A stretch of 64,000 nt of DNA from a virus (Duplodnaviria > Caudoviricetes). Every line of letters begins with the position of its first letter. The stretch's first letter is position 1. Positions 10,811 through 32,629 of the stretch are shown here, piece after piece. Below the pieces are notes generated by a model. It was not told where the DNA came from. It ran no database searches and saw nothing but the letters and a program-made list of their open reading frames with translations. Position numbers and translations under genes: made by a program. The stretch is taken from positions 32,001-96,000 of the IMG/VR virus record IMGVR_UViG_3300033062_002592, one strand, 5' to 3'.

Positions 10811-12070
10811 ATGGAAAAAACAAAAATAATGCTGATGACTGATTCAAATACAAGAACTGGATTTGGCGGCGTTTCACATAATATAGCCATAGGCTTGGCT
10901 GAAAACAATTTCGATGTATCTTGGCTTGGCTGGGGTTTTCATGCTGACGGTCCAATGCCCCGCGCTAATTATATATTATTGCCATCTGGTCAAGCTCCCT
11001 TTGGTGAAGACATTCTACCATATTATCTTCAAGTTATAAAACCAGAAGTTTTCATGACTCAAGCCGACACAAGAATGGTAATGAATATTCCTCAAGCCCT
11101 AAAGCAAGTTCCTAATAAGCCAGCGTGGGTATTCTACGTAGTCATAGATGGTTCGACTTGGGATTATAAAGGCGAAAACAAGAAATGGCCCACAAACTGG
11201 CTCAATTGCATCAAGCAAGCCGACAAAGTTGTAACCATGACAAAGTTTGGTCAAGATATACTACAGGCGAATGGCGTAGAGTCTCAAGTGATTTATCACG
11301 GCGTAGAGACTTCTCGTTATACCCCAATATCAGAAGAAAATAAACGCAAGCTGAAAGCCTCGTCCGGCCTTCAAGAGGATCTATTCATCTTTGGTGGAGT
11401 CTTCAAAAACATGGCGCGCAAATGTCCAGAAAAATATCTTCAAGCGTTCAAAATTTTTTACGAAAGCTTAAACGAAGCACAGCAAAGCAAAGTTGCACTT
11501 CTTTTACACACAAATCCTGGACCTGGTCCCTCTGGAGAATTTGACCTAGTTGAACAATGTGTGGATTATGGATTAACGCCAGGAAAAAATGTAATCTTTA
11601 GTATGCAAAACGTTCCACCAGATTTAATGCAACTTGTTTATCAATCAATGGATGTCTATCTACACCTTGGTACAATGGAAGGCTTTGGACTGCCAATTAT
11701 AGAGGCAATGTCCTGCGGCATTCCCAGCATTGGTATCAACAGTTGTACGATGCCCGAATTAATTGGAGACTGCGGCATACTTTCAGAAGTTCCCCGCTAT
11801 AACAAGACTCATAAGATAAGCTTCGGCTCATACAATGGCGTTGAATGCGACATAGTTGATCCTTGGGATATTGCAAAAAAGATGCAGAAGCTCTATGAAA
11901 GTGAAGCCCTCAGAAAAGAACTTGGCTTTAAATCTACAGAACGCGCAGTAAAAACTTTTGATTGGTCAATAATCCGAAAGCAGTGGGTTGATTTAATGAA
12001 GTCATTGGTAATCACAGAAGATAAAATCCCTGAAGAGTGGCAAAAGCTTTATGCCGAGACAAAAGTCTAA
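10811..12070 (+). CDS. Glycosyltransferase, GT4 family
   Basis: TGFGGV, YHGV, EGFGLPIIEAMSCGIP, FDW. Confidence 0.92.
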   Translation: MEKTKIMLMTDSNTRTGFGGVSHNIAIGLAENNFDVSWLGWGFHADGPMPRANYILLPSGQAPFGEDILPYYLQVIKPEVFMTQADTRMVMNIPQALKQVPNKPAWVFYVVIDGSTWDYKGENKKWPTNWLNCIKQADKVVTMTKFGQDILQANGVESQVIYHGVETSRYTPISEENKRKLKASSGLQEDLFIFGGVFKNMARKCPEKYLQAFKIFYESLNEAQQSKVALLLHTNPGPGPSGEFDLVEQCVDYGLTPGKNVIFSMQNVPPDLMQLVYQSMDVYLHLGTMEGFGLPIIEAMSCGIPSIGINSCTMPELIGDCGILSEVPRYNKTHKISFGSYNGVECDIVDPWDIAKKMQKLYESEALRKELGFKSTERAVKTFDWSIIRKQWVDLMKSLVITEDKIPEEWQKLYAETKV

Positions 12071-12170
12071 ACCAAAAGTTTGCAAAGAAAAAAACTGCAA
12101 AAAATGCATGGAACATTTTCATGTTGAAATACTTTGGTATTGTCCTTATGGTAAAAGAAGGCAAGATTAA
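12051..12170 (+). CDS. 39-aa basic Cys-rich microprotein (not in ORF track)
   Basis: MPRQKSKPKVCKEKNCKKCMEHFHVEILWYCPYGKRRQD; its stop abuts the next ATG. Confidence 0.45.
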   Translation: MPRQKSKPKVCKEKNCKKCMEHFHVEILWYCPYGKRRQD

Positions 12171-12518
12171 ATGAAAAGCAAAAGTAGTGAATACCAACCC
12201 TTAGTATTACCAGATAAATTAGATGAATTATTTAAGATGCAAAGAGAATTCCAAGATGAACATGGATACTGGCCCGATTTACACCATGTTTGTGCCGCCG
12301 GTGCTGCAGAGTTTTTAGAACTTTGGGCAAAAAGCGGTGGCAAATGGTGGAAGAAACACAAAGTTGCACTTAAAGAAGAACAAGTAGAGGAACTCGTTGA
12401 TGTTCTCCATTTCTTTCTTTTGGCCTGTTTAAAACTTGAGATTACTCCCCTAGAACTGTTTGACGCTTATAAGGAAAAATTAAACGTCAATATTGAAAGA
12501 GCAAAAAACAATTATTAG
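12171..12518 (+). CDS. Dimeric all-alpha dUTPase / MazG-like NTP pyrophosphatase
   Basis: AEFLE...KWWKK...EELVDVLHF...YKEK...NIER...Y. Confidence 0.85.
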   Translation: MKSKSSEYQPLVLPDKLDELFKMQREFQDEHGYWPDLHHVCAAGAAEFLELWAKSGGKWWKKHKVALKEEQVEELVDVLHFFLLACLKLEITPLELFDAYKEKLNVNIERAKNNY

Positions 12519-12530
12519 GAGATTTTTATT

Positions 12531-14279: not shown

Positions 14280-14280
14280 A

Positions 14281-14436
14281 ATGAACAAAGTTTTTTGCGA
14301 TTATTGCCATAATGAGATTCCTCCAGATAAAGTTTATGAAGTAATCTTGAGATATCCCGGAGAAATTTGTGGAACTTGGGACGCCTGTGAAAATTGCTTC
14401 AAAGTTATTGAATCAAAATTGGGATTGAAAAAATGA
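14281..14436 (+). CDS. Zn-finger microprotein
   Basis: CDYC...DACENC. Confidence 0.6.
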   Translation: MNKVFCDYCHNEIPPDKVYEVILRYPGEICGTWDACENCFKVIESKLGLKK

Positions 14437-14585
14437 AATGTCATTGCGGATCCGAGCTTAAAGCCGAAGATAGTAAAAGTGGAGAAATCTGGGTCTGCCC
14501 CAAATGTGAATGCAAATTCAGGTTTACTTTAGTAAAATGGCAGAACAAATGCTATGCAAAGTTTCACAAAGACCAAAATACTTAA
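14433..14585 (+). CDS. 50-aa Zn-ribbon microprotein (not in ORF track)
   Basis: MKCHCGSELK...WVCPKCECKF...; ATGA overlap with the previous stop. Confidence 0.6.
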   Translation: MKCHCGSELKAEDSKSGEIWVCPKCECKFRFTLVKWQNKCYAKFHKDQNT

Positions 14586-14590
14586 ATACT
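14572..14590 (+). promoter_or_regulatory. Putative archaeal BRE/TATA promoter for the glycan operon
   Basis: ACCAAAATACTTAAATA: purine-rich BRE-like element plus TTAAATA box about 30-40 nt upstream of the 14622 start. Confidence 0.45.
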
Positions 14591-14621
14591 TGTATTGCTT
14601 ATATGTATATGAGATGTTTTT

Positions 14622-14963
14622 TTGCTGATAGACAATACAAGAGTCCAAGTTATGCAATTTGAAAACCTTCGAGAATTTATTAAGCCAAGTTCAAGTTGCT
14701 ATGTTTTAAAGTATGAACTCGGCGATGAAGATGCTGTCTATTACACCATCGCTGATGGTTCAAACTTTGCATTATTGGCATTCTGTCTTGATAAAAATTT
14801 TAAAACGGAAAACGTCAAGATTGAAGGAGATAAGATTATAGAAGCTACAGGCCCCTCAGGAACCACAGTTGTTCTTGCAAATGTTATTAATGATACATTC
14901 TTAGAAGCCGTTCTTGATGAATATTTTGGGAAAAAACCTAGGAAAAAGAAAAATGAAAATTAA
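14622..14963 (+). CDS. Hypothetical protein
   Basis: 113-aa ORF, TTG start after GAGATG. Confidence 0.65.
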   Translation: MLIDNTRVQVMQFENLREFIKPSSSCYVLKYELGDEDAVYYTIADGSNFALLAFCLDKNFKTENVKIEGDKIIEATGPSGTTVVLANVINDTFLEAVLDEYFGKKPRKKKNEN

Positions 14964-15870
14964 AACTGTAGCACTTTGCGGCTCAAATATTGGTGATTAT
15001 CTTTTCGACATTGTGGCAGAGGGTATGGTTTATTTATTGGGCCGAAAAAACGTTTATATAAAAGATTTGTATATTGCGCCCAATGATCCAAACCAAGATT
15101 TACATGGTGGTTATTCATATACAAACGAATTTTTGCGAGAGCCAAATGAAATTTCTTCATTGTTTGACTGTGATGTTTTAATTAATAATTACGCTAGAGC
15201 GCCAGGAGATATAGGTGAACATAAAGAGGCACCGGAATTCAAAAAATCTGGAAAAACCGTTGTTATAATTGATGGCGGCGATTTTCCGAATATGTGGTAC
15301 CATATTCCCCATGATTTATATTTTAAAAAGGAATATTATATCAATCAAACTTATCCCAAAGATGTATTTAATTTGCCCTTTGCTGCAAAAATGTTTAAAT
15401 ATGATTTTCCCAACATAGAAAAAACAGGAGATATAAGTCTTTTTGGTAGTCTTGGTGCAAACCCTTTGCGTGGCCAACTTATGGAAGCATTTAAAAAGAC
15501 AAGTTTTAAATGTAATTTTGGTGGGCATTCTCTTCAATATATGAAATATCTTGAAGAAGTGCGCAGGCATTGGCTTTGTCTTTCAACTCCAAGCGCTAGT
15601 TGGGATACTTACAGATATTGGGAATTACCCTATTTTGCTTGCCCCATGTTATGTAGTCGCCCAATGATAAAAATAGATAATGATTTTGTTGATAAAGAAA
15701 GTTGTTTAAAATTTGACACTGCTGAAGAAGCGGTTAAAATTGCAGAAGAGTATCTTCCTCAAAAAGAAGTTTTGTTAAAAATTGGAGAAAAGGCAAGAGA
15801 AGTTTCCCTGAAATATAATTTGTCTATACATCGAGCGCAAAAAGTTTTGGATGAAGTTGAAAAATTATGA
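14953..15870 (+). CDS. Glycosyltransferase (GT-B, CgeB/Glyco_trans_1_2-like)
   Basis: IIDGGD, YFKKEY, R...Y..YL, WDTYRYWE...C and KIGEKARE C-terminal pattern. Confidence 0.75.
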   Translation: MKIKTVALCGSNIGDYLFDIVAEGMVYLLGRKNVYIKDLYIAPNDPNQDLHGGYSYTNEFLREPNEISSLFDCDVLINNYARAPGDIGEHKEAPEFKKSGKTVVIIDGGDFPNMWYHIPHDLYFKKEYYINQTYPKDVFNLPFAAKMFKYDFPNIEKTGDISLFGSLGANPLRGQLMEAFKKTSFKCNFGGHSLQYMKYLEEVRRHWLCLSTPSASWDTYRYWELPYFACPMLCSRPMIKIDNDFVDKESCLKFDTAEEAVKIAEEYLPQKEVLLKIGEKAREVSLKYNLSIHRAQKVLDEVEKL

Positions 15871-16433
15871 AGTGGCAAGATTTAACAAAAGAAGATTATG
15901 AAACAAGTTGGGGCGTTGCCAACTATTTAGATAAAATTGTTTTAGACGTTGGCGCAGATGTTGGAAGCACTGCATTATTTTTCATAGAAAGAGGAGCAAA
16001 AAACATTATTTGTGTGGATACAGATACTTCAGGATTAACAAAAAATGCTCAAGAGATTCCTCAAATAAGCAAAATTGTAAATGTTAATATCCAAGATAAA
16101 TATACAATGGAGCGAGTTCTTTTAGAAACGGCGGATATTGTAAAGATGGATATAGAAGGAGCTGAAATGTGGCTATTAGAAGTTGATCCACGAATATTGC
16201 AGCAACATAAAGAATATATTATTGAGATTCATGGTAGTTGTATTCATCATACTCCTGTTTGTGATCCACAATGTCTTTACACTTATATTAAAGATATGTT
16301 TTTGAAAAATAACTTTGAAATTTTGGATGATTTCATATTTTATTGGAATCCTGTTTATTGTTCAGAATATAAAGGAGAACGCAATAGTCCCGAAAATAAA
16401 GGATTACATATTGTTTACTGCAGGAGAAAATAA
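15867..16433 (+). CDS. FkbM-like SAM methyltransferase
   Basis: VLDVGADVG...VKMDIEGAE...IEIH. Confidence 0.8.
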   Translation: MKWQDLTKEDYETSWGVANYLDKIVLDVGADVGSTALFFIERGAKNIICVDTDTSGLTKNAQEIPQISKIVNVNIQDKYTMERVLLETADIVKMDIEGAEMWLLEVDPRILQQHKEYIIEIHGSCIHHTPVCDPQCLYTYIKDMFLKNNFEILDDFIFYWNPVYCSEYKGERNSPENKGLHIVYCRRK

Positions 16434-17366
16434 ATGAAGATTTTTATAACCGGAGGAACAGGGTTTATTGGAGAAAACCTTGTAAATAAACTGTTAGAAC
16501 GAAACCATGAAATATATGTATTATGTAGAAATGTTACAGACCGCAAAATTACACTTCCCCAAGGCACCAATATTGTTTATGGAGACCTTATTGATGGGCA
16601 TTTTCTAAAGAAATCCTTAAAGGAAATAAATCCCGATGTGGTAGTTCATCTTGCTTCAGTCTCTTCGGTCGCTTATGGGCATCAACATGCTCAAGAAAAT
16701 TTTGAAATTACATTTCTTGGAACAGTAAATATTCAAAAAGCCTGTGAAGGATTATCAAACTTGCAAAAATTTATTTTTGCGGGAACTTCTGAAGAATATG
16801 GCAATCAAACACAATTTCCAATAAAAGAAAATGCTCCTCTTTTTCCCAATCAACCATATGCCATAGCCAAAGTTGCTTCAGATTATTATCTTGATTATTG
16901 TAAAATAGCAAATGGTTTTCCATCAGTTATTCTACGCCCGTTCAATACATATGGTAGAACAAAGAATTTTACATTTGTAACTGAAAGCATTATATATCAA
17001 ATGCTTACAAAAGATAAGGTTATCTTGGGAAATCCCGATGCAACTAGAGATTTGCTCTATGTGGATGACCATGTTAATGGATATATCAAAGCAATTGAAA
17101 CAACAAAAGACCTTGAAAAATGCAGAGCCATAAACTTATGCACTGGAATCGGAACATCTATAAAAACTCTTGCTGAAAAAATTCAAAAAATTGCCGATTT
17201 TAAAGGCGAAATAATTTGGAATATAAAAATTCGCCCAACTGAAATTAATAAGCTCGTTGGAGATTGGGGTCCAGCCTTTGATTATTTAGAATGGCGCCCA
17301 CAAACCTCATTAGATGAGGGTTTAAGTTTAGCAACTTATAAGATAAAATCTTTGGTGGTGAAATAG
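16434..17366 (+). CDS. NDP-sugar 4,6-dehydratase/epimerase (extended SDR)
   Basis: GGTGFIG, HLAS, TSEEYG, PYAIAK, RPFNTYG, RDLLYVDD. Confidence 0.92.
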   Translation: MKIFITGGTGFIGENLVNKLLERNHEIYVLCRNVTDRKITLPQGTNIVYGDLIDGHFLKKSLKEINPDVVVHLASVSSVAYGHQHAQENFEITFLGTVNIQKACEGLSNLQKFIFAGTSEEYGNQTQFPIKENAPLFPNQPYAIAKVASDYYLDYCKIANGFPSVILRPFNTYGRTKNFTFVTESIIYQMLTKDKVILGNPDATRDLLYVDDHVNGYIKAIETTKDLEKCRAINLCTGIGTSIKTLAEKIQKIADFKGEIIWNIKIRPTEINKLVGDWGPAFDYLEWRPQTSLDEGLSLATYKIKSLVVK

Positions 17367-17954
17367 ATGAAGATAAGTAATGAAGAATGGGAAACTTTAA
17401 AAACCTTTTTTATGTTTCAAAAAGGTTTAAGTATGCAAGAAGATATATTGATACTATATAATTTTTCTAAAAACATGGGGTTTAACCATATTCTTGAACT
17501 TGGAATAGGAGTAGAGGCAAATGCAACAAAAGCTTTCGCCTTTGCTAAAGCACAGTTGCCAAGTACATCCTTTACAAGCGTTGATTTCAGCGAAGAAAAT
17601 ATTAAAATTTCCAGAAAAATTCTTGAAGATTTTCATCTTGATAAATATGTTGAATTAATACATTCAGATTCGGTGGAATTTCTAAAAAACGCTCCTAAAA
17701 ACTATTATGATTTAATATTTATAGATACAAGCCATTCATTTGAACATACTGTTGCAGAAATTGAGTTGTCAACAGAAAAATTCGATCCTGCTGGATACAT
17801 ATTTTTGCATGATACAAGACAAATAGGAGTAAAAAATGCCATAGATTATTTTGTGCAGAAAAATCCATTATTCATACACACAGAGTTTAATACTGTAGCT
17901 GGGTTGGGTTCCCTTGCAAAAAAATCTTATGAAAAACAATTGAAAGAAATTTAG
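17367..17954 (+). CDS. Class I SAM methyltransferase (Methyltransf_24-like)
   Basis: LELGIG, SVD, DSVEF, LIFIDTSHSFE, FLHDT. Confidence 0.8.
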   Translation: MKISNEEWETLKTFFMFQKGLSMQEDILILYNFSKNMGFNHILELGIGVEANATKAFAFAKAQLPSTSFTSVDFSEENIKISRKILEDFHLDKYVELIHSDSVEFLKNAPKNYYDLIFIDTSHSFEHTVAEIELSTEKFDPAGYIFLHDTRQIGVKNAIDYFVQKNPLFIHTEFNTVAGLGSLAKKSYEKQLKEI

Positions 17955-17976
17955 TCATTAAAATATACGTGATTAT

Positions 17977-18834
17977 ATGAATCAAAAAAAGATAGCTATT
18001 ATGGGCGCCAGGGGGCATGTTGCAACAAATATTTACTGGCAATTACGAGATAATAATGAAATTTACCAATTTTCTAGGGAACAAATTGAAGATCCTCAAG
18101 GAGGATATCTTGTTTATCCTTATTCAGATTTTTTCAACTATGATTATGATTTAATTATAAATTGTGTTGGCTTTGGAAATCCAGAGGAGATTGAAACCGC
18201 TGGAGTGCAGTTATTTCTTGTAACCGAAGAATATGATAATAAAGTCCTAAGTTATTTAAATGAACATCCAAACACAAGATATATTTTTATCAGTTCTGGT
18301 GCTGTTCATAATCAATTTTTTGTTGATGACCTTCAAAAAAAGAATTTTTATCAGATTTCAAAGATAAATGCCGAAGCAAAACACAGGTCTCTTCCAGCTT
18401 TAAATATAGTTGATATTAGATTGTATTCATTTTTTACTCGTTTTACAAATCTTGATTCCAAATTTTTTATGAGTGCTTTGATAAAGGCAATTTTAACTAA
18501 AACGGTATTTGTAACAAACGAGAGAGAAATGATTAGGGACTATATAAATCCAAAAGACCTTATTAATCTTATAGAGTTATCCCTTAAACCAAAACATTTA
18601 AATGAAGGATTTGATATATACAGTCTAAGTCCCATTTCAAAGTTTGAAATACTTCGGTATTTTCAAGATAAATGTAGATTAAAGGTAAAATTCGATAACA
18701 GATATAAAAGCTTTAGTTCTGTGGGTAAAGATATTTATGCTTCAACTTTTAAAAGGAAAGCAGCGATTCTCGGTTACAAACCAAAATATACATCTCTGAA
18801 AACCATAAAGGAAGAATCTGCATGTCTCCTATGA
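17977..18834 (+). CDS. NAD-dependent epimerase/reductase (SDR)
   Basis: IMGARGHVA, INCVG, ISSGAV, YQISK, RDYI. Confidence 0.8.
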   Translation: MNQKKIAIMGARGHVATNIYWQLRDNNEIYQFSREQIEDPQGGYLVYPYSDFFNYDYDLIINCVGFGNPEEIETAGVQLFLVTEEYDNKVLSYLNEHPNTRYIFISSGAVHNQFFVDDLQKKNFYQISKINAEAKHRSLPALNIVDIRLYSFFTRFTNLDSKFFMSALIKAILTKTVFVTNEREMIRDYINPKDLINLIELSLKPKHLNEGFDIYSLSPISKFEILRYFQDKCRLKVKFDNRYKSFSSVGKDIYASTFKRKAAILGYKPKYTSLKTIKEESACLL

Positions 18835-20612: not shown

Positions 20613-21597
20613 TGCCCCACCTTTAGTTTTTTTCAAAATAAATCAAATTGATTATTCGCAATTAAATTCAAAAAAGGTCTCTATAGTCTTAGTAACTTTC
20701 AGAAAAACCCCCAAATATGAAATGCTCTATGAATCACTGTCACACCAAACAATCAAAAATTTTGAAGTTGTGTTAATAGAGGAACAATATGAATTGCATA
20801 AAGAACTTGTAAAAAATCTTTCTAAAAAATTCAATATTTCAACAACCCATGTTTATTGTGAGTCAACGGTACCCGAAAATGCAAAGGCTTTGAACGAAGG
20901 AATTGTCCACAGCACAGGCGATTATATTATGAATATCAACGACTGTATGTATTTTCCTTATAGGTGGCTTGAAAAACATTTGCTTGTTGCTTCAAAGGAT
21001 TTTCTAAGTTTGGGCGCTCGCTATTTTACATATTCAACAAATTTTCCAATCGAAAAATATTTATCGGGAATAATTGAAATTCCCAAAGAACAAGATAAAA
21101 ACATTTCAAAGTTTTTAGAAGAAAAAAGTGGAATAAAAGATTATTTGAACATCCATTTCGGTGAACATATAGTATCAAGTCCTCAAGATTATAGGCTTTT
21201 GGGGCTTCCAACAGATATATTCAAAGAAGATAATCTTATTTTAGAAGCATTGCCAGGATGGAATTATGGTGGAAACTCGATGGCTCCTACAGAAATGTTT
21301 CTTGAAATAAATGGGTTTGATGAAAGATTTGATAATGGTTATGGTTGGACAGATTGCGAAATTGGCATTAGAATGTATAATAAAGGACATAAAGCATTTA
21401 TTAATCTATCAAATTGGTCTCTTGAAATTCAAGATAAAGACCATGTTGATGTTATAGAATTAAAAGCAGATTTAAAGGATAAAAACAAATCTGATAATAA
21501 CTGGAAACTTTATGAGGAAGCTTGTGATAAAAAATTAACTTTTGTTAATCCAAACAAAAATTTGAGGGAAATAAAAGAAAAAAATAAGGGAAAGTAA
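20593..21597 (+). CDS. Glycosyltransferase, GT2 family
   Basis: VSIVLVT, QTIKNFEVVLI, ALNEGI, NINDC, NGFDERF..GYGWTDCE. Confidence 0.85.
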   Translation: MKLLMINAPPLVFFKINQIDYSQLNSKKVSIVLVTFRKTPKYEMLYESLSHQTIKNFEVVLIEEQYELHKELVKNLSKKFNISTTHVYCESTVPENAKALNEGIVHSTGDYIMNINDCMYFPYRWLEKHLLVASKDFLSLGARYFTYSTNFPIEKYLSGIIEIPKEQDKNISKFLEEKSGIKDYLNIHFGEHIVSSPQDYRLLGLPTDIFKEDNLILEALPGWNYGGNSMAPTEMFLEINGFDERFDNGYGWTDCEIGIRMYNKGHKAFINLSNWSLEIQDKDHVDVIELKADLKDKNKSDNNWKLYEEACDKKLTFVNPNKNLREIKEKNKGK

Positions 21598-21599
21598 AA

Positions 21600-22652
21600 A
21601 TGTCTTCCTTAGAAATTTATAAAAATAAAAAGGTGCTTATAACCGGCAACACTGGGTTTAAGGGTTCGTGGCTATCTTTATGGCTGCAGTCTCTTGGAGC
21701 AAATGTGTATGGATATTCTCTTCCTCCTCCAACAGAACCCAATATGTTTAATATTTTAAATTTAAGCACAAAAATTGATACACATTTTGATGATATAAAA
21801 GATTTTGCTTCCTTGCTTTATTTTTTCAAGATAATTGACCCAGAAATTGTTATTCATCTTGCCGCGCAACCAATTGTTAAAGAATCTTATATGAATCCTA
21901 AATTAACATTTGAGACAAATGTTATGGGAACAATTAACGTTCTTGAATCAATTAAAAGAACAGACGGTATTAAGGCTGCAATCATAATAACAACAGACAA
22001 AGTTTATGAAGATAAATATCCTTATATTTATAAAGAAACAGACAAATTGGGAGCAAATGATCCATATAGTTCAAGTAAAGCTTGTGCTGAAATCGTTACA
22101 GATTCTTATAGGCGTGCATTTTTTAAATCAAAAAATATACAAGTAGCCACTGCACGAGCTGGAAACATTCTTGGGGGAGGAGATTGGGCGGTAAGAATAA
22201 TTCCAGAAACAATTAAAAAATTGCAAAGAGGAGAAAAGGCAACAACATATATGCCAGAAGCTGTTAGACCATGGCAGTTTATTATGGATCCCCTTTATGG
22301 ATATTTATTACTTGGATCAAAATTGTTAGAAGGCCCAAAATATTCGGATGCATGGAATTTTGGTCCTCCAGAAACAAATTATCTTACGGTTGAAGAGTTG
22401 ATTAAAAAAATTATTCGTTATTGGGGTTCTGGAGACTACATTACAATTGATTCAGATAAAACAATGCCAGAGTCCGAGCTTTTAAAGCTGGATTGTGAAA
22501 AATCTAAAAAATTGCTAGGTTGGAAAGGAAAATATTCCATAGATGAGACTTTAGAAAAAACTGTTTTATGGTATAAGAATTATTATTCAGGAAAAACAAA
22601 TATGTATAAATACACATTAAGTCAAATAAAGGAGTACGATTCAATAAGATGA
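21600..22652 (+). CDS. rfbG: CDP-glucose 4,6-dehydratase
   Basis: ITGNTGFKGSWL, HLAAQPIV, TTDKVY, DPYSSSKAC, ARAGNILGGGDW, RPWQ, WNFGP. Confidence 0.93.
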   Translation: MSSLEIYKNKKVLITGNTGFKGSWLSLWLQSLGANVYGYSLPPPTEPNMFNILNLSTKIDTHFDDIKDFASLLYFFKIIDPEIVIHLAAQPIVKESYMNPKLTFETNVMGTINVLESIKRTDGIKAAIIITTDKVYEDKYPYIYKETDKLGANDPYSSSKACAEIVTDSYRRAFFKSKNIQVATARAGNILGGGDWAVRIIPETIKKLQRGEKATTYMPEAVRPWQFIMDPLYGYLLLGSKLLEGPKYSDAWNFGPPETNYLTVEELIKKIIRYWGSGDYITIDSDKTMPESELLKLDCEKSKKLLGWKGKYSIDETLEKTVLWYKNYYSGKTNMYKYTLSQIKEYDSIR

Positions 22653-23221
22653 GTGATGAATCAGATTCACTCTTTACATATAATCAAAATAATATTGAAA
22701 TAAATGCAATTGAATATATAGAGCATTATACAAGCGATTATAAAAAAGAAGGAAAAATTCTTTATGATACAATTTTAGAACTTAATGCTAAAATCATTGT
22801 AGATTTAGGGATTCGCGGTGGTTGTTCAACAAGAGTATGCCTCTTAGGAGCTAAAGAAACAAATGGAGAAGTTTATAGCTGCGATATAATTTTCCCAGAA
22901 AAATCACTTAAAGATTTTATAGAAAAGTATGGGTTAAAAAAATATTGGCATCTTCATATTGGTGATGATATAGAGTTTGCATCACAAATAGATAAAAAAA
23001 TAGATATTCTGCTTTTAGATTCGAATCATGAAACTCAGCATGTTATAGCACAATTAGTTTGTTATCCTGAAAAGGTTTCTCCATTAGGTAGAATATTTAT
23101 ACATGATTCAAAGTATCAAAGTGTAGAAGATGCCATTAACGCTTTTATGTTAAATAATAACAAATGGATTAAAATAGAGCATGACACAACTCTTGGTTAT
23201 GCTGAGTTTAGGAGAATATAA
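22649..23221 (+). CDS. Class I SAM methyltransferase (Methyltransf_24-like)
   Basis: VDLGIRGGCST, SCDI, LLLDSNH, FIHD; paralogue of 17367-17954. Confidence 0.8.
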   Translation: MSDESDSLFTYNQNNIEINAIEYIEHYTSDYKKEGKILYDTILELNAKIIVDLGIRGGCSTRVCLLGAKETNGEVYSCDIIFPEKSLKDFIEKYGLKKYWHLHIGDDIEFASQIDKKIDILLLDSNHETQHVIAQLVCYPEKVSPLGRIFIHDSKYQSVEDAINAFMLNNNKWIKIEHDTTLGYAEFRRI

Positions 23222-23225
23222 CTAA

Positions 23226-24362
23226 ATGAAAGTTGGAATGGTCAGTCCTTTTCGGGTTCAATGCGGCAACGCTCAGCACACAGAAAATCTTGTCATAGAA
23301 CTTGTAAAACAAGTTGATTCTTTTAAAATATTCGCAGAAAATGTTATTCCTCCTGAAACAGAAATTGGGCCAATAAATAAAAATATTCATATCGATTACG
23401 AAAGATGTTGGCAGCGTGGTCAAGGATTCGAAATTTTAGAAAGAAAAATCAAGGAATATTCACCAAATGTAATACATATACAATTTGTTGGTGGCTTATT
23501 CAATGAATTATCTTATGATCCAAATAGCGCATTTCAAAAAATTATTGAAAATTTGAGAAATGTTGGAATAAAAATTATTTTATACATGCATGATGTACCA
23601 GAATACTTCCCAGATGAAAAACAAATATATAATTGGTATAAAAATTTGCAAGCAATATTTTTTGTTGCAAATCCATCAACTAAAAATGGAATTAAAAAAT
23701 GGTTTCCAGAAGCTCAAGTATATATTATCCCTCTAGGAACTCCAAATGTAACTATTACCGACAAACTTTTAGCAAGACAAAAACTGGGTTTAAACGAAAA
23801 AGATTTTATATTGATGCAACCTGGATTTTATGGTAAAAACAAAGGCATGAAAGAAATCATTGATAATATTCAGCATATTCATATACCGAATTTTAAAATG
23901 GTTTTTGCGGGAACAATGCATCCTTTTTCAATGGATTTAGATAAGGTTTATATGAAAGAATGTATTAAATCTGCACTTAAAGTTAAAGATAGAGTAATTT
24001 TCGTAAATAAATTTTTAACAAAAGATGAAATAGATTTGTATTGTTCCGCTGCAGATTTCTTTATTTCCAACCAATCAATGATATTTGGCTATGCTGGTAC
24101 AGCAAGCGTTCATGGCTTATTGCCATTTGGTAAACCCCTAATATTGAGTACAAGCCCCAAATTATCTGCCTTTACAGATAATGTAGATTGTAAAAAATTT
24201 GCTCCAAATCATCTTGTAGAAACTATAATGGATCTTTATACAAAAACTGAAATTCAAAAACAACTTTCAAATGGTGCTCTTGAATTGGCTGAAAAAACAA
24301 GCTGTAAAAATGTTTCAAAACAATGTGTAGAAATCTATAATAAGGTGTGCAAAATAAAATGA
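23226..24362 (+). CDS. Glycosyltransferase, GT4-like
   Basis: QCGNAQHT, IHIQF, HDV, IPLG, QPGFYGKNKG. Confidence 0.85.
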   Translation: MKVGMVSPFRVQCGNAQHTENLVIELVKQVDSFKIFAENVIPPETEIGPINKNIHIDYERCWQRGQGFEILERKIKEYSPNVIHIQFVGGLFNELSYDPNSAFQKIIENLRNVGIKIILYMHDVPEYFPDEKQIYNWYKNLQAIFFVANPSTKNGIKKWFPEAQVYIIPLGTPNVTITDKLLARQKLGLNEKDFILMQPGFYGKNKGMKEIIDNIQHIHIPNFKMVFAGTMHPFSMDLDKVYMKECIKSALKVKDRVIFVNKFLTKDEIDLYCSAADFFISNQSMIFGYAGTASVHGLLPFGKPLILSTSPKLSAFTDNVDCKKFAPNHLVETIMDLYTKTEIQKQLSNGALELAEKTSCKNVSKQCVEIYNKVCKIK

Positions 24363-25168
24363 CAGAAGAAAAACTTTTAAACATAATCATAGTAAATCAT
24401 AATAATTGGAGATATTTGGCAGGTTGTTTAGCCTCAATTTTTCAAAATACAATTTCAAAAACTGAATATGAAATAATAGTTGTTGATAATGCTTCTACAG
24501 ACATATCCTTAAAGCTTTTGGAATATTTACATGAACAAGGAGAGCCAGTTAAAATCATTAAAAATACAGAAAATTTGAATTATGTACTAGGTAATAATAT
24601 TGGATTGAAAAATACAAATTCAAAATACATACTATTTTTAAATAATGATACAATTTTAGATAAAAATTGTCTTAAAGAAATGTTGAATGTATTTACATTA
24701 GAACCAAAGGCTGGAATGGTTGGAGCAATACAATATTCTCCTTCTGGAACTTTAGCGTGCCCACCTCTTGGTAAATTTAATAGGAATCCTGAAGATTGGA
24801 GTTCTGTTGGATTTGACCCATGTGACAATCCGGAAAAGCTTCCTAAACCATTTGTAGAAGTTGATAATACAAATACCGCGTGCGCAATGATTTCTAAAGA
24901 GGTTTTAAACAAAATAGGATATATGGATGAAGAATTTTGTCCATGTATGTATGAAGCTGAAGATTATATTATGCGAATAAAAGTTGCAGGATTTAAAATT
25001 TTGGTATGTACAACAGCAAAATTGGTTCATTATGTTGCTGCAACCACAAATATTACGCAAGATACGCAACGATATTATACCTATGTAGTATTGCCAAAAA
25101 ACCGAAAAGTTTTTATTAAGAAATGGGGAAAATATTTTGAGGAAGAAAAAAAATGTCAAAAATACTAA
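24359..25168 (+). CDS. Glycosyltransferase, GT2 family
   Basis: IIIVNHN, VVDNASTD, NNIG, FLNND, GYMDEEF..YEAEDY. Confidence 0.92.
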   Translation: MTEEKLLNIIIVNHNNWRYLAGCLASIFQNTISKTEYEIIVVDNASTDISLKLLEYLHEQGEPVKIIKNTENLNYVLGNNIGLKNTNSKYILFLNNDTILDKNCLKEMLNVFTLEPKAGMVGAIQYSPSGTLACPPLGKFNRNPEDWSSVGFDPCDNPEKLPKPFVEVDNTNTACAMISKEVLNKIGYMDEEFCPCMYEAEDYIMRIKVAGFKILVCTTAKLVHYVAATTNITQDTQRYYTYVVLPKNRKVFIKKWGKYFEEEKKCQKY

Positions 25169-25677
25169 ATCCTTTTGAAAACGTAGAAGCTCATTACAAT
25201 ACAAAACTTATTGGTGCATCATATGAAAATAAAATCATCTTGGACTTGGGTGCATCCAATGGAGACTCCGCAGAATATTTTCTAAATAATGGAGCAAAGT
25301 TTGTTATAGCAGTTGAAGGAAATTTCAATTTTCAAGGAAGAAATGTTTTTGCAGAATTGCTAGAAAACAGTAAATTATTTAATGGAAAAATAATTCCAAT
25401 TTTTATGTGGATAGATAATCCCAAACAAATAGAAAATTTAATTATTGCATATAAACCAGATATTGTGAAAAGCGATATTGAAGGAGCTGAAATACACCTG
25501 TTTAATATTCGAGATGAAGTTTGGCAGTTAGTACCAGAATATATTGTTGAAACTCATGAAGGTTATTTACATGACGATTCAAATAAAATTATGTATTTAA
25601 AGTGTGAAAAAAATAAATATAAAATTATGACTGATACGTGTATTGTTGCCCATGTTATATATACAAAAAGGGAGTGA
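25153..25677 (+). CDS. FkbM-like SAM methyltransferase
   Basis: LDLGASNGD...VKSDIEGAE...VETH; paralogue of 15867-16433. Confidence 0.78.
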   Translation: MSKILNPFENVEAHYNTKLIGASYENKIILDLGASNGDSAEYFLNNGAKFVIAVEGNFNFQGRNVFAELLENSKLFNGKIIPIFMWIDNPKQIENLIIAYKPDIVKSDIEGAEIHLFNIRDEVWQLVPEYIVETHEGYLHDDSNKIMYLKCEKNKYKIMTDTCIVAHVIYTKRE

Positions 25678-25683
25678 TAAAAA

Positions 25684-26079
25684 ATGAAAGAAAATCCAAA
25701 TGTAGAATGGATTAAAAGAAGAAAAGAACTTTTGGAAAATATCAAAGGATTTGGAATCAAAGGAGACAGAATTCAAATAACAACACAGTTAAGCTACATA
25801 CATAGTTCAATGTATGAATCTATGGTTGGCTGGCAAAATTGGATCAATGGATGGATTTCTATTGAACTTAATAAAAAAATTAATGTTGCAGATTCAAATG
25901 TGCTAATTCTTTCCGACATAGAACTAAAAGATTTACATGAAAAATTCAAAGATTTTGCTACGAAATTCATAGAACTTGACATAAAATTCACAGAAATTGT
26001 AACCAAAAAAATGAATAAGAAAAAACTCAAAGAGTTTCAACAAGGCCTCGATGATAATATGAAAAGGATGATTGTTTAA
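25684..26079 (+). CDS. DUF2153-like archaeal helical protein
   Basis: WIKRRKELLE...DRIQ...S..GW..W...FIELDIKFT pattern recalled from DUF2153. Confidence 0.55.
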   Translation: MKENPNVEWIKRRKELLENIKGFGIKGDRIQITTQLSYIHSSMYESMVGWQNWINGWISIELNKKINVADSNVLILSDIELKDLHEKFKDFATKFIELDIKFTEIVTKKMNKKKLKEFQQGLDDNMKRMIV

Positions 26080-27218
26080 TGAAAATAGCAATGGTAACCA
26101 CATGGCGCACAGCCTGTGGAGTTGCAAAATATACTGAAGAATTATGCAACGAGCTTTCCAAACTTTGTGAATTGAGGATTTTTGCAGAACATACCCAAAA
26201 AGAGCTTGAGCCAATAAACAAAGATGCAAACATTTTTTATAAACGATGCTATATTAGAGGAGGCTCTTATCAAGAAGAACTCGAAGAAATATTGGATTAT
26301 AAGCCAGACCTAGTTCATGTACAATTCGAATCATCTATGTATAGTGAATCTTATAACCCAAACAGTCTTCATCTTAAATTTTTGGATACATTACATATAA
26401 ATGGTATAAGAACCTGTATGACCTTTCACAATGTATTACCATTTCCAAATTTCGTAAACAATGAGGTGCAGCAAATTGCATTATGGTACAGTAGCTTGAA
26501 CAACAAAGTTATTGTTGGCAACGAAACCACTAAAAACGAATTTTTGAAATGGAATAAAAATATAGATATATCTGTAATACCTCTAGGTTCAACAATTTTT
26601 GATTCTATTACAAAAGAAGAAGCTCTTAAAAAACTGGGTCTTTCCAATAAAATTTACATAATACAGCCAGGATTCTATGGAGCCGACAAAGGAATGGTTC
26701 AACTTGTTAAATTGATGCCTGAATTGCTTCAGAAATTCCCAAATATTCATCTAGTTTTTGCTGGTGGACTTCATCCATTGGCTCCAGATGCTTGGAAAAT
26801 TCACACAAAAGAATGTCTCAAAGAAATCATCAAATTAAACCTAATCAAATATGTATATCCTTTAGGAAAGTTTCTTTCAGAAGATGAATTAAATGTTTGG
26901 CTAGGGTTATCTGACATAGTGATGCTAAATTACCACTGGGTTTCCGGTTTATATAGCGCATCAGCATCCGGCCATCGAGTCCTATGCACTAACAGACCCA
27001 TAATCATGAATTCTCAAGATGTGCGCCTTTCAGAGTTTCAGGATGGCATTCAATGCTGCAAAGCTGATGATGCCCATATGGTAGAAGCCATTTCGAAATG
27101 CTTATCTGATAAACTTTATGCTGATAAAATAGCTAAAGGCGCTATTGACTATGCCCACGAAACATCATTTGAATCTATAGCAAAAAAACATATGGAGATT
27201 TATGAAAAATGCAATTAG
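26079..27218 (+). CDS. Glycosyltransferase, GT4-like
   Basis: ACGVAKYT, VHVQFE, TFHNV, IPLG, QPGFYGADKG, SASASG. Confidence 0.85.
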   Translation: MKIAMVTTWRTACGVAKYTEELCNELSKLCELRIFAEHTQKELEPINKDANIFYKRCYIRGGSYQEELEEILDYKPDLVHVQFESSMYSESYNPNSLHLKFLDTLHINGIRTCMTFHNVLPFPNFVNNEVQQIALWYSSLNNKVIVGNETTKNEFLKWNKNIDISVIPLGSTIFDSITKEEALKKLGLSNKIYIIQPGFYGADKGMVQLVKLMPELLQKFPNIHLVFAGGLHPLAPDAWKIHTKECLKEIIKLNLIKYVYPLGKFLSEDELNVWLGLSDIVMLNYHWVSGLYSASASGHRVLCTNRPIIMNSQDVRLSEFQDGIQCCKADDAHMVEAISKCLSDKLYADKIAKGAIDYAHETSFESIAKKHMEIYEKCN

Positions 27219-28300
27219 GATTAGTTTCAACCTTCGGAGTTAAATGTGGCCTTTCAACCTATAGTACGTATCTCGGCAACGCTCTGCAAAATTCAAAAAT
27301 TTCTGTCACAGGATTATCAGAATTTCCTTTTCCAGATGAAAAAGCTATTACTCCGGATTTTCAACCCAAATTTCCATTCTTCAATTGTTGGAAAAGAACA
27401 GAGTTCTATGATAGATTAATCAAAGAAAGTCATAACTATGATATAATTCATATTCAACATCAGTTTGGATTGTTCAACAATACCTATGCTTGGATACAGC
27501 TTTTGCAAAAGATTAAAAAGCCCATTCTTACAATCCATGATATAGTTCCACCAAATGAGCAGCTTTCAACCTATTTCACAGAAACATTTCACCATGCTGA
27601 TAGGCTCATAGTACATACGAATACTTGCAAAAATATGCTTGAAAGTTGGAACTGTCCAAAAGATAAAATCGAATTGATTCCGCATGGCACAAAACTCATA
27701 GATGTTCCCACCAAAACTGAAGCTCGTAAGGAGCTTCAACTTCCAGAAAATGCAAAGATAATTTTATCATGGGGATTTATTTGGGAATCCAAAGGCTTGC
27801 TAGAGCTAACGAATATTCTTTCAGAAGTTAAAAAAACTTATCCAGAAGCAATTTTAATTCATGCCGGCGGCGTTCACCCTATATTGCAGAAATCGCAATA
27901 TGTTGCGAACATTTTAAAAGCCGCAATAAAATCTGGGCTTGGACCAAAAGATTTAATTATAACCCAGTGGGTTCCAGAAGATAAAGTGCCAACATGGTTC
28001 GGCGCTGCAGATGTAATTGTTTTGAACTATATGAGAGGCAGTGCCTCAGCCAGCGGTGCCGCGCACAGAGCTATGGCTGGTCATCGACCAATTATAAAAA
28101 CAGATGATCCATGTGTTGAAGATATTACAGGTTATACCGTTGCGCGTTTCGATATTAATGCTCTCTATAATGCGATATTGAAAGTTCTACAGGATGAAGT
28201 TTTGCAGAAAACTTTGGTTGAACAGGCAGAAAAAGCTTCCATAGAAACTTCGTGGCAAAACGTTGCTTTGAAGCACAAAAAGCTCTATGGAATGTTTTGA
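27209..28300 (+). CDS. Glycosyltransferase, GT4-like
   Basis: KCGLSTYS, IHIQH, TIHD, IPHG, WGFIWESKG, SASASGA, SWQNVA. Confidence 0.88.
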   Translation: MQLGLVSTFGVKCGLSTYSTYLGNALQNSKISVTGLSEFPFPDEKAITPDFQPKFPFFNCWKRTEFYDRLIKESHNYDIIHIQHQFGLFNNTYAWIQLLQKIKKPILTIHDIVPPNEQLSTYFTETFHHADRLIVHTNTCKNMLESWNCPKDKIELIPHGTKLIDVPTKTEARKELQLPENAKIILSWGFIWESKGLLELTNILSEVKKTYPEAILIHAGGVHPILQKSQYVANILKAAIKSGLGPKDLIITQWVPEDKVPTWFGAADVIVLNYMRGSASASGAAHRAMAGHRPIIKTDDPCVEDITGYTVARFDINALYNAILKVLQDEVLQKTLVEQAEKASIETSWQNVALKHKKLYGMF

Positions 28301-32030: not shown

Positions 32031-32031
32031 T

Positions 32032-32573: not shown

Positions 32574-32629
32574 TTAATCGACCTCCTCGGCCTATTTTAT
32601 ATTTTTACGAATTTAAAAAATTGGAAAAT

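What the first reader, a model, noticed from the sequence alone, without database searches (positions are those of the whole stretch)
10811..28300. Large virus-borne glycan assembly line
Seen: seven glycosyltransferases (GT4-like 10811, 23226, 26079, 27209; GT2 20593, 24359; CgeB-like 14953), three SDR sugar enzymes, a ThDP enzyme and four methyltransferases. All but the first GT lie in one tightly coupled run at 14953-28300. No flippase, polymerase, oligosaccharyltransferase or multi-TM protein is present. Inference: this is not a lipid-linked surface-polysaccharide locus but a soluble, stepwise pathway decorating protein (virion) or DNA inside the cell. Roughly a fifth of the window is devoted to it.
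Basis: partly seen in the sequence, partly recalled or inferred. Interest (0 to 1): 0.8.

Follow-up and report, generated by a model that had tools for sequence, protein, structure and literature searches.

The report
Virus-encoded glycan factory for virion coating
An uncultured 106-kb tailed virus, probably of archaea, devotes about 14% of its genome to making unusual sugars and attaching them with seven soluble transferases, most likely onto its own outer particle proteins at a Ser/Thr-Gly-Ser tag, though no sugar has been measured.

Summary
Seven glycosyltransferases, three SDR sugar enzymes, a ThDP enzyme and four methyltransferases lie where stated, and none has a membrane segment. The record is a 106-kb tailed-virus genome. 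At least six independent assemblies of relatives keep the layout NrdD, glycan island, one conserved GT4, then convergent virion genes, so a chimeric assembly is excluded.

New here:
- The ThDP enzyme is YerE-like. With a bona fide CDP-glucose 4,6-dehydratase and a YerF-like reductase it predicts a CDP-linked 4-C-branched 6-deoxyhexose.
- The island is hypervariable among relatives around a conserved core (three GT4, one GT2, one SDR).
- The strictly ordered tripeptide [S/T]-G-S occurs 197 times against about 30 expected. It is found only in virion-module proteins, and in all seven viruses that carry the conserved GT4 family.

The virus has no initiating phosphoglycosyltransferase, no STT3 and no hydroxymethylase. 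The best reading is cytoplasmic O-glycosylation of the virion surface, as in chloroviruses and mycobacteriophages. This is inferred, not shown, and host-envelope remodelling remains possible.

The scan has already noted the same [S/T]GS tag on other, unrelated phage DNA (AI notes, unchecked). I rate this a new variant of a known kind, interest 0.62.

The parts
10811..12070 (+). GT4 glycosyltransferase with a canonical EX7E motif. It is an outlier at the end of the replication module.
   Evidence: Glycos_transf_1 50.4 bits. phrog_2170 over its full length, 100 bits. EGFGLPIIE at residue 290. 62% identical in G001. Homologues sit in the head module of Synechococcus phage S-CBS4 and in a small sugar cassette of Tetrasphaera phage TJE1.
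14622..14963 (+). Small conserved ORF of unknown function at the head of the island.
   Evidence: No family hit. 50% identical ORF at the same position in G001.
14953..15870 (+). CgeB-like glycosyltransferase (Glyco_trans_1_2). Not found in the relatives examined.
   Evidence: PF13524 29.9 bits against a cut-off of 25. No homologue in G001 or L106-L111. ATG at 14953; the ORF is open from 14914.
15867..16433 (+). FkbM-family SAM methyltransferase.
   Evidence: TIGR01444 37.8 bits against a cut-off of 37.7. VLDVGADVG motif.
16434..17366 (+). Extended-SDR NDP-sugar epimerase, dehydratase or reductase. Part of the conserved core.
   Evidence: GDP_Man_Dehyd and Epimerase 175-188 bits. GGTGFIG and YAIAK motifs. 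Best PDB matches are UDP-glucose 4-epimerase and GDP-6-deoxy-4-hexulose reductase. 41-63% identical in five of six relatives.
17367..17954 (+). Methyltransf_24 SAM methyltransferase.
   Evidence: PF13578 50.3 bits.
17977..18834 (+). Divergent SDR, a YerF-like candidate side-chain ketoreductase.
   Evidence: Epimerase 28.2 bits. GARGHVA and YQISK motifs. Overlaps the ThDP gene by 13 nt. Homologues lie within 2 kb of the YerE-like gene in 6 cellular loci and next to it in G001 and L106.
18822..20612 (+). YerE-like ThDP-dependent sugar C-branching enzyme.
   Evidence: Three TPP domains. GDG-X25-NN motif. Best PDB match is 8rph JanthE, a YerE-like enzyme, at 380 bits against 240 for acetolactate synthase. 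In cells it is linked with CDP-hexose genes.
20593..21597 (+). GT2 glycosyltransferase with a Glyco_transf_7C segment.
   Evidence: PF00535 32.9 bits and PF02709 28.2 bits. 53-55% identical in G001 and L106.
21600..22652 (+). CDP-glucose 4,6-dehydratase.
   Evidence: TIGR02622 429.6 bits against a cut-off of 278.45. GNTGFKG and YSSSK motifs.
22649..23221 (+). Methyltransf_24 / CmcI-like sugar O-methyltransferase.
   Evidence: PF13578 49.4 bits; PF04989 at E 2.5e-4.
23226..24362 (+). GT4 glycosyltransferase, part of the conserved core.
   Evidence: PF00534 33 bits. 25-49% identical in all six relatives.
24359..25168 (+). GT2 glycosyltransferase, part of the conserved core.
   Evidence: PF00535 94.8 bits. 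29-43% identical in all six relatives. PDB matches are TarS and chondroitin-synthase type GT-A enzymes.
25153..25677 (+). FkbM-like methyltransferase, paralogue of 15867.
   Evidence: TIGR01444 33 bits, below cut-off. 34% identical to 15867, E 4e-18. ILDLGASNG motif.
25684..26079 (+). Small conserved protein of unknown role, with a weak DUF2153 match.
   Evidence: PF09921 at E 2.4e-4, below cut-off. 51-57% identical in G001 and L106. The atlas search gave nothing usable.
26079..27218 (+). GT4 glycosyltransferase, part of the conserved core.
   Evidence: PF13439 36.4 bits. 29-46% identical in all six relatives.
27209..28300 (+). Clade-specific anchor GT4 that always ends the island next to the virion genes. 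Candidate peptide-directed or core transferase.
   Evidence: PF13439, PF13692 and PF00534. 55 homologues at 40-76% identity, then a drop to 25%; all are on contigs of 106 kb or less. Same position in G001 and L106-L111. AF2 model pLDDT 93.6 with a GT-B fold. The usual EX7E site is replaced by an invariant RGSASASGAAH.
28285..60745 (-). Virion module whose outer proteins carry the [S/T]-G-S tag, the candidate acceptors. It includes the MCP at 43441-44370, a 205-aa protein with 12 tags at 42168-42785, a giant 2227-aa protein and spike-like proteins.
   Evidence: 197 tags against about 30 expected genome-wide, all in this module and its continuation at 65659-70040. There are none in the portal, TerL, 44915-46123 or the tape-measure-like 30993-32030. 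SGS and TGS are the top two tripeptides in an unbiased scan. Permutation control.

Best explanation
The stretch is a virus-encoded, wholly soluble glycosylation kit in three layers.

1. Sugar making. A CDP-glucose 4,6-dehydratase makes CDP-4-keto-6-deoxyglucose. The YerE-like ThDP enzyme adds a two-carbon acyl branch from pyruvate at C-4, and the adjacent YerF-like SDR reduces it. No 3-dehydrase (E1/E3) is present, so the predicted product is a CDP-4-C-(1-hydroxyethyl)-6-deoxyhexose rather than 3,6-dideoxy yersiniose. A second SDR makes or epimerises another NDP-sugar.

2. Assembly. A conserved core of three GT4 enzymes and one GT2, plus three accessory GTs, builds the glycan stepwise in the cytoplasm.

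3. Tailoring. Four SAM methyltransferases O-methylate it.

The most likely acceptor is Ser/Thr in the ordered tripeptide [S/T]-G-S on outward-facing virion proteins. These proteins fold and assemble in the cytoplasm, where a membrane OST cannot reach them. The clade-specific GT4 at 27209-28300 is the best candidate for the sequon-recognising or core enzyme. The rest of the island varies between relatives like an O-antigen locus, which would give each virus a different outer glycan.

Shown: gene identities, solubility, conservation and variability of the island, and the enrichment, order-specificity and distribution of the tag. Inferred: the sugar structure, the acceptor, and which GT starts the chain.
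For: Gene identities and catalytic motifs.

Sugar pathway:
- The YerE-like assignment rests on JanthE (8rph) at 380 bits against 240 for acetolactate synthase, identified as YerE-like in PMC12188165. YerE chemistry is from PMC9306805.
- In 80 cellular loci the YerE-like gene lies near a CDP-glucose dehydratase (45 loci), a Glc-1-P cytidylyltransferase (44) and a DegT/E1-type gene (43).
- The sister virus G001 has a true cytidylyltransferase (TIGR02623, 304.8 bits against a cut-off of 300.25) next to its ThDP, YerF-like and dehydratase genes.

Solubility and missing membrane machinery:
- No TM segment in any cluster protein.
- No PGT or STT3 in the genome.

The tag:
- 197 observed against about 30 expected, with per-protein z of 4-16 in the strongly tagged proteins. 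It occurs only in virion-module proteins and is absent from the enzymes, TerL, portal and the internal tape-measure-like protein.
- SGS (109 against 12.8) and TGS (80 against 10.3) are the two most enriched tripeptides.
- Composition-matched permutations are flat: SGT 15, TSG 16, STG 15, GTS 7. Other xGS tripeptides are at or below expectation, most of them depleted.
- About half the sites are conserved between orthologues that are only 35-50% identical.
- The same excess appears in all seven viruses with the GT4_27209 family: G000 and G001, then L106 51/4.7, L107 31/5.0, L108 12/2.7, L110 13/1.3 and L111 38/4.0.
- Distant MCP relatives lack both the GT4 family and a comparable excess; the largest there is about twofold.
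- NxS/T is not enriched.

Precedent:
- Homologues of GT4_10811 sit inside the head module of phage S-CBS4.
- Virion glycosylation by virus-encoded enzymes is known in mycobacteriophages (Freeman 2023, cited in PMC10568470).
- A smaller GT, dehydratase and methyltransferase locus has been noted in an Asgard virus (PMC13700489).
Against: - No chemistry exists. The virus is uncultured and no glycan has been measured on any of these proteins.
- The link between tag and GT4 rests on one clade, so it may be a single evolutionary event rather than repeated co-occurrence.
- The GT4_27209 fold is generic. Its nearest structures include enzymes acting on small soluble acceptors and enzymes acting on lipid-linked acceptors.
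- No cluster enzyme matches a known peptide O-glycosyltransferase family specifically.
- This virus lacks a clear cytidylyltransferase. It has only a generic 224-aa NTP_transferase about 25 kb upstream of the island, 43 bits to TIGR02623.
- Soluble GTs are also normal in lipid-linked pathways that borrow a host initiating enzyme, flippase and OST.
- A Gly-containing tripeptide could mark loops for a reason other than glycosylation.
Confidence: 0.58

Rival explanations
1. Host-envelope conversion. The soluble viral GTs and sugar enzymes extend or alter the host's own lipid-linked oligosaccharide. They would use the host's initiating transferase, flippase and OST or polymerase, so that the S-layer or surface glycan changes during infection (receptor masking, superinfection exclusion). 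The virion tag would then be unrelated.
For: - GT4 and GT2 enzymes of O-antigen, capsule and archaeal Agl pathways are typically soluble or peripheral, and weak NCBIfam matches go to such enzymes (EpsD, HpsN/O/P, AglG, Agl16, PglH/PglI).
- Structural neighbours include PglA, PimA and WaaG.
- YerE-like genes in cells sit in surface-polysaccharide-type loci.
- One relative, L110, keeps a 145-aa fragment matching a Wzx-type flippase C-terminus, which suggests a cellular polysaccharide-locus origin.
- Island hypervariability fits any exposed glycan.
Against: - No initiating PGT, flippase, polymerase or OST in the virus.
- The most conserved GT is virus-specific, with no cellular homologue above 25% identity and no homologue on a contig longer than a viral genome. 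That is unexpected for an enzyme that must recognise a host lipid-linked intermediate.
- This reading leaves the strong, clade-wide [S/T]GS signal on virion proteins unexplained.
Confidence: 0.2
2. The cassette and the tag are both real but unconnected. [S/T]GS would be a structural loop signature or the site of another modification (phosphorylation, cross-linking, or a target of the virus's Ubl/JAB system). The glycan kit would make a free, secreted or small-molecule-linked glycan.
For: - There is no direct link between any GT and the motif.
- The top structural neighbours of the anchor GT4 (sucrose-phosphate synthase, MshA, BshA) act on small soluble acceptors.
- The virus also encodes ThiF/E1 and JAB proteins.
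- The tag-GT4 association comes from one clade.
Against: - The tag is order-specific, and other xGS tripeptides are at or below expectation, most of them depleted. A generic loop preference does not predict this.
- It is absent from internal virion proteins and from all enzymes.
- Distant relatives with similar virion folds lack a comparable excess.
- Ubl conjugation targets Lys, not Ser or Thr (established knowledge).
Confidence: 0.15
3. DNA glycosylation. The GTs decorate hypermodified bases in viral DNA to evade restriction, as T4 glucosylates hydroxymethylcytosine.
For: - GT4_10811 lies among replication and nucleotide-metabolism genes: helicase, a dUTPase_2-like protein and NrdD.
- T4 alpha- and beta-glucosyltransferases also have a GT-B fold (established knowledge).
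Against: - No ThyA-family hydroxymethylase and no ThyX in the genome.
- Known DNA glycosylation uses one to three GTs with common UDP-sugars, not seven GTs with branched and methylated sugars.
- The main island abuts the virion genes in every relative.
Confidence: 0.03

Closest known systems
Chlorovirus PBCV-1 capsid glycosylation (virus-encoded soluble GTs and methyltransferase domains such as A064R and A111/114R; PMC7826918, PMC5408694, PMC9614988)
   Same: - Virus-encoded, cytoplasmic and independent of the host's membrane glycosylation machinery.
- A conserved core glycan with variable outer decoration, including O-methylated deoxy sugars.
- A non-canonical attachment context.
   Different: - The PBCV-1 glycans are N-linked and sit on one capsid protein of a eukaryotic giant virus.
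- Here the candidate site is Ser/Thr in [S/T]GS on many head and tail proteins of a 106-kb tailed virus.
- The enzymes are unrelated beyond the GT-A and GT-B folds. A chlorovirus NY2A GT, 3oy2, is a rank-4 structural neighbour at 15% identity.
Mycobacteriophage virion O-glycosylation (Che8, Corndog, Myrna; Freeman et al. 2023, cited in PMC10568470), and small head-module GT cassettes such as that of Synechococcus phage S-CBS4
   Same: - Tailed viruses whose own soluble GTs modify capsid and tail proteins in the cytoplasm.
- GT plus methyltransferase gene sets lie next to structural genes.
   Different: - Those cassettes have 2-4 genes and rely on host nucleotide sugars.
- This one has 17 genes, its own CDP-sugar branch pathway and four methyltransferases.
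- It has a discrete tripeptide tag dispersed over the outer proteins, a candidate sequon with no reported counterpart that I know of for those phages.
Yersiniose A pathway of Yersinia pseudotuberculosis (DdhA-D, YerE, YerF) and YerE-like enzymes ErwE and JanthE (PMC9306805, PMC12188165)
   Same: - CDP-glucose 4,6-dehydratase, a ThDP carboligase closest to JanthE, and an adjacent reductase.
- The sister virus adds the cytidylyltransferase.
   Different: - No E1/E3 3-deoxygenation genes in this virus, so the acceptor is probably the 6-deoxy rather than the 3,6-dideoxy keto-sugar.
- The pathway sits in a virus, not in an O-antigen locus.
Archaeal-virus GT modules, for example Asgard virus GuangzhiV1 (three GTs, GDP-mannose 4,6-dehydratase, one methyltransferase; PMC13700489)
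   Same: A sugar-nucleotide enzyme, GT and methyltransferase module in a head-tailed virus of probable archaeal host, already interpreted as modifying virion or host proteins.
   Different: - About three times as many genes.
- A ThDP branching enzyme.
- A clade-wide conserved anchor GT.
- A candidate sequon.

Membership tests
YerE-like ThDP-dependent sugar C-branching enzymes | Three-domain ThDP enzyme with a GDG-X(24-27)-NN cofactor motif and the catalytic Glu | tested here: met
   TPP_enzyme_N, M and C domains. GDGSFQ...VWNN at residue 447 and THGEQ at about residue 48.
YerE-like ThDP-dependent sugar C-branching enzymes | Closer to characterised YerE-like enzymes than to acetolactate synthases | tested here: met
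   8rph (JanthE) 379.7 bits against the best acetolactate synthase at 240.1. All acetolactate synthase NCBIfam models score far below their cut-offs. JanthE is described as YerE-like in PMC12188165.
YerE-like ThDP-dependent sugar C-branching enzymes | Gene neighbourhood of the CDP-hexose pathway (cytidylyltransferase, 4,6-dehydratase, E1/E3, YerF reductase) | tested here: inconclusive
   The dehydratase and a YerF-like SDR are present. A true cytidylyltransferase occurs only in sister virus G001. No DegT/E1 in this genome.
YerE-like ThDP-dependent sugar C-branching enzymes | Carboligation of pyruvate onto a CDP-4-keto-deoxyhexose | not testable with these tools
   Needs an enzyme assay.
CDP-glucose 4,6-dehydratase (TIGR02622) | Score above the equivalog cut-off, with the NAD-binding and YxxxK motifs | tested here: met
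   429.6 bits against 278.45. GNTGFKG and YSSSK.
Virus-encoded virion protein glycosylation (chlorovirus / mycobacteriophage type) | Virus-encoded GTs that are soluble and conserved across the virus clade | tested here: met
   No TM segments. Core GTs are present in all seven related viruses.
Virus-encoded virion protein glycosylation (chlorovirus / mycobacteriophage type) | Acceptor features on virion proteins that co-occur with the GTs | tested here: met
   [S/T]GS excess in the virion proteins of all seven GT4-bearing viruses. Five distant relatives that lack the GT4 family show no comparable excess. This is one clade, so not independent replicates.
Virus-encoded virion protein glycosylation (chlorovirus / mycobacteriophage type) | Glycan chemically demonstrated on virion proteins | not testable with these tools
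   Uncultured virus; needs mass spectrometry.
Lipid-linked surface polysaccharide or N-glycan locus (Wzx/Wzy or AglB type) | Initiating phosphoglycosyltransferase (Bac_transf or WecA/AglH family) | tested here: not met
   No PF02397 or PF00953 match in the genome, with positive controls.
Lipid-linked surface polysaccharide or N-glycan locus (Wzx/Wzy or AglB type) | Flippase, polymerase or STT3/AglB oligosaccharyltransferase (multi-TM proteins) | tested here: not met
   No ORF with more than three hydrophobic segments. No STT3. Host-supplied machinery cannot be excluded.
Phage DNA glycosylation (T4 type) | Pyrimidine hydroxymethylase that provides the acceptor base | tested here: not met
   No Thymidylat_synt or Thy1 match in the genome.

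The most novel reading that the evidence does not exclude
A clade of about 100-kb tailed viruses, probably archaeal, runs a sequon-directed cytoplasmic protein O-glycosylation system. An atypical virus-only GT4 (EX7E replaced by an invariant RGSASASGAAH) would recognise [S/T]-G-S on outward-facing virion proteins. A hypervariable island would then build a strain-specific outer glycan, in effect a virion 'O-antigen', that includes a 4-C-branched 6-deoxyhexose made by a virus-borne YerE-like enzyme. If the host is archaeal, this would also give the first defined enzyme and sequon for O-glycosylation in the archaeal world.
Probability: 0.35. Interest if true: 0.82.

Novelty: new variant of a known kind. 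Interest (0 to 1): 0.62.

Why it matters
Viruses that glycosylate their own particles without host membrane machinery are known from a few giant viruses and mycobacteriophages. How widespread and how elaborate this is in tailed viruses is an open question.

What this case offers:
- A compact 106-kb virus spends about 14% of its genome on the task.
- It carries a rare ThDP sugar-branching enzyme.
- It varies the kit between relatives like a bacterial O-antigen locus, which points to strong selection on the virion's sugar coat (receptor binding, protection from host or environmental proteases, escape from defence or grazing).
- The ordered [S/T]GS tag gives a concrete, testable sequon and a named candidate transferase.

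The system can be checked by co-expression and mass spectrometry without culturing the virus. If it holds, it could supply new tools for site-directed cytoplasmic protein glycosylation and for making branched deoxy sugars.

Tried and rejected
- Close-relative scan of IMG/VR with the ThDP enzyme found nothing. Alignment-based scans with the two best-conserved GT4s found only G001. The wider family appeared only in the 5.8-billion-protein search.
- Host inference failed by several routes. The NCBI MAG contig L111 is not held. Cluster members carry no organism names. There are no tRNAs in the window. YerE-like homologues are scattered over many bacterial phyla and a few DPANN archaea at 52% identity or less, so they give no donor or host signal.
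- What remains on the host is indirect. The best isolate matches of PolB and TerL are haloarchaeal tailed viruses, and the genome has RFC-like, PriL-like and MCM/DUF3987-like replication proteins.
- The MCP has no match among isolated phages.
- The structure model and Foldseek search of the anchor GT4 gave only generic GT4 neighbours. SdgB, a protein O-GlcNAc transferase, is at rank 43. This does not discriminate protein from lipid or small-molecule acceptors.
- PDB sequence searches of the two GT2s, the anchor GT4 and the YerF-like SDR were uninformative.
- The atlas search of the DUF2153-like protein gave nothing usable.
- The N- versus C-domain conservation of the anchor GT4 (22 against 45 near-invariant residues, at least 95% conserved) was not decisive for acceptor type.
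- The contig ends are not a clean 141-nt repeat. 117 nt match and are followed by an extra 24-nt repeat unit, so completeness is likely but not proven (CheckV 78%).
- Chimeric assembly was considered because the island GC is 32.1% against 37.5% elsewhere. It was rejected on synteny in six or more independent assemblies.
- The Freeman 2023 paper itself is not held.
- No complex prediction was run: enzyme-substrate pairs are a poor use of that test.

Full report
**What is there**

The window is bases 32001-96000 of a single 106,319-bp IMG/VR virus record. It is a tailed virus with these markers:
- large terminase (62227-63666, minus strand)
- portal (50929-52926)
- HK97-type major capsid protein (43441-44370)
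- family-B DNA polymerase (4099-6432)
- a PriL-like protein, a DUF3987/MCM-like helicase, and NrdD

The contig ends share 117 nt followed by 24-nt repeat units. The genome is therefore probably near-complete, although CheckV says 78%.

- four GT4-type GTs, two GT2s and one CgeB-like GT
- three SDRs
- one ThDP enzyme
- four methyltransferases, one supported mainly by paralogy

Genes from 14914 to 28300 are spaced by -20 to +22 nt. No cluster protein has a hydrophobic segment, and no ORF in the genome has more than three. The genome has no Bac_transf or WecA-type initiating transferase and no STT3.

**Not a chimera**

The sister virus G001 (IMGVR_UViG_3300035208_002851, MCP 89% identical) has the island at the same place. 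Five further contigs from other samples were reached through the terminal GT4. They show the same order: NrdD, island, that GT4, then convergent virion genes. The island's lower GC (32.1% against 37.5%) is therefore a property of the island, as in cellular glycan loci, and not an assembly artefact.

**The sugar pathway**

- ORF 21600-22652 is a CDP-glucose 4,6-dehydratase (TIGR02622, 429.6 bits against a cut-off of 278).
- The best solved relative of the ThDP enzyme is JanthE (8rph) at 380 bits, against 240 for true acetolactate synthase. JanthE is a YerE-like enzyme (PMC12188165).
- YerE adds an acetyl branch from pyruvate to a CDP-4-keto-deoxyhexose, and YerF then reduces it (PMC9306805).
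- In 80 cellular loci holding the closest homologues (52% identity or less, many bacterial phyla and a few DPANN archaea), the gene lies near a CDP-glucose dehydratase in 45, a Glc-1-P cytidylyltransferase in 44 and a DegT/E1-type gene in 43. Homologues of the divergent SDR 17977-18834 lie within 2 kb in six.
- G001 carries a bona fide cytidylyltransferase next to its ThDP, SDR and dehydratase genes.
- This virus has no DegT/E1 gene. It has only a generic nucleotidyltransferase about 25 kb upstream of the island.

I therefore infer a CDP-4-C-(1-hydroxyethyl)-6-deoxyhexose that keeps its 3-OH. This step is inference.

**A variable island around a conserved core**

Across G001 and L106-L111 the conserved genes are:
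- the terminal GT4 (45-64% identity)
- GT4 26079, GT4 23226 and GT2 24347
- in five of six, SDR 16434

The ThDP, YerF-like and dehydratase set, B12-radical-SAM and TylC3-like C-methyltransferases, DegT aminotransferases, FkbM methyltransferases and the CgeB-like GT all come and go. Homing-endonuclease-like genes are scattered among them.

The terminal GT4 family has 55 members at 40-76% identity, then nothing above 25%. None is on a contig longer than a viral genome. Its usual EX7E site is replaced by an invariant RGSASASGAAH. Its AF2 model (pLDDT 93.6) is a generic GT-B fold.

**The acceptor question**

- Genome-wide there are 197 tags against about 30 expected from per-protein shuffles.
- All lie in virion-module proteins. 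The strongly tagged proteins have z of 4-16.
- There are none in the enzymes, terminase, portal, the 402-aa protein at 44915-46123, or the Ser/Thr-rich tape-measure-like protein at 30993-32030.
- In an unbiased scan SGS and TGS are the two most enriched tripeptides.
- Permutations of the same residues are flat (TGS 80 against SGT 15, TSG 16, STG 15, GTS 7). Other xGS tripeptides are at or below expectation, most of them depleted.
- The tag is isolated rather than part of Ser-Gly repeats. About half its positions are conserved between orthologues that are only 35-50% identical.
- All seven viruses with the GT4 family show the excess on the virion side and none on the cassette side.
- Five distant MCP relatives lack the GT4 family and show at most a twofold excess, although they carry other GTs.
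- NxS/T is not enriched.

Tailed virions assemble in the cytoplasm. If they are glycosylated, it must be by soluble enzymes acting directly on protein (established topology of OSTs).

**Rivals**

- Host-envelope conversion through host lipid-linked machinery cannot be excluded, because such pathways also use soluble GTs. It does not explain the tag or the virus-only anchor GT4.
- DNA glycosylation lacks a hydroxymethylase and is far over-provisioned by this cassette.
- The tag could serve another purpose unrelated to the cassette.

**Host**

The host is unknown. The best isolate matches of PolB and TerL are haloarchaeal tailed viruses. The genome also has RFC-like, PriL-like, ThiF and JAB genes. 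This points to an anaerobic archaeon but does not prove it.

**Comparison and verdict**

Virus-encoded virion glycosylation is known in chloroviruses (PMC7826918, PMC5408694) and mycobacteriophages (Freeman 2023, via PMC10568470). Small GT modules have been noted in archaeal viruses (PMC13700489) and in phage head modules.

New here are the scale, the YerE-like branch pathway in a virus, the O-antigen-like variability around a conserved virus-only GT4, and a sharply defined candidate sequon.

Other agents of this scan have reported the same [S/T]GS tag on unrelated aquatic phages. Those notes are unchecked and I did not test them. They suggest the tag may be widespread.

Verdict: new variant of a known kind, interest 0.62.

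Noticed in passing
window 28285-60745 (virion proteins): A second set of enriched tripeptides occurs in virion-region proteins: LPR 20 against 1.4 expected, PRF 16 against 0.8, PRL 14 against 1.4, PKF 13 against 1.2. This suggests a repeated L-P-[RK]-[FL] motif of unknown meaning.
   Followed up: no
window 27209-28300 and family P0001-P0055: The anchor GT4 family lacks the canonical GT4 EX7E glutamates. The site reads NYMRGSASASGAAHRA and is invariant in 46 sequences, so donor binding or catalysis may be atypical.
   Followed up: partly
G001:30501-32256 (L017): In the sister virus the YerE-like gene is split into two overlapping ORFs of 181 and 408 aa. This is either a frameshift or an assembly error.
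   Followed up: no
G001:34109-34747; L106:19162-19929; L107:7224-7757; L111:16612-17334: Vsr-like and NUMOD3/DUF559-type homing-endonuclease genes are inserted within or beside the glycan islands and virion genes of relatives. They are a possible driver of cassette shuffling.
   Followed up: no
window 12531-14279 against G001:24616-26508: The NrdD proteins of the two sister viruses are only about 28% identical, although they occupy the same position. G001 has an adjacent NrdG activase and this virus has none there. This looks like a non-orthologous replacement.
   Followed up: no
L110:2739-3176: A relative's island holds a 145-aa ORF matching only the C-terminal part of a Wzx-type flippase (Polysacc_synt_C). 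It is probably a relic of capture from a cellular polysaccharide locus.
   Followed up: no
L107:3208-3882 and 1509-2762: Another relative carries a thymidylate-synthase-family gene and a TylC3-like NDP-hexose C-methyltransferase (Methyltransf_13/14) between NrdD and its GTs.
   Followed up: no
G000:1-141 and 106178-106319 (outside the window): The contig ends share 117 nt and contain 24-nt tandem units (TTTGCCTTGCCTTTGCCTAACCAA) that differ by one copy. This is a likely terminal repeat or circular overlap that IMG/VR scored as 'linear'.
   Followed up: partly
G000:14683-16696 (L112:2683-4696, outside the window): Pfam confirms a ThiF/E1-like protein (100 bits) and gives a weak Prok-JAB match upstream of the window. 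An RFC-like clamp loader lies at L112:14529-15503.
   Followed up: partly
L004-L012 (distant MCP relatives, including a complete 42.9-kb genome, G004): Viruses whose MCP is only 24-29% identical also carry 2-6 GT genes each. Multi-GT cassettes therefore seem common in this wider virus group even without the [S/T]GS tag.
   Followed up: partly
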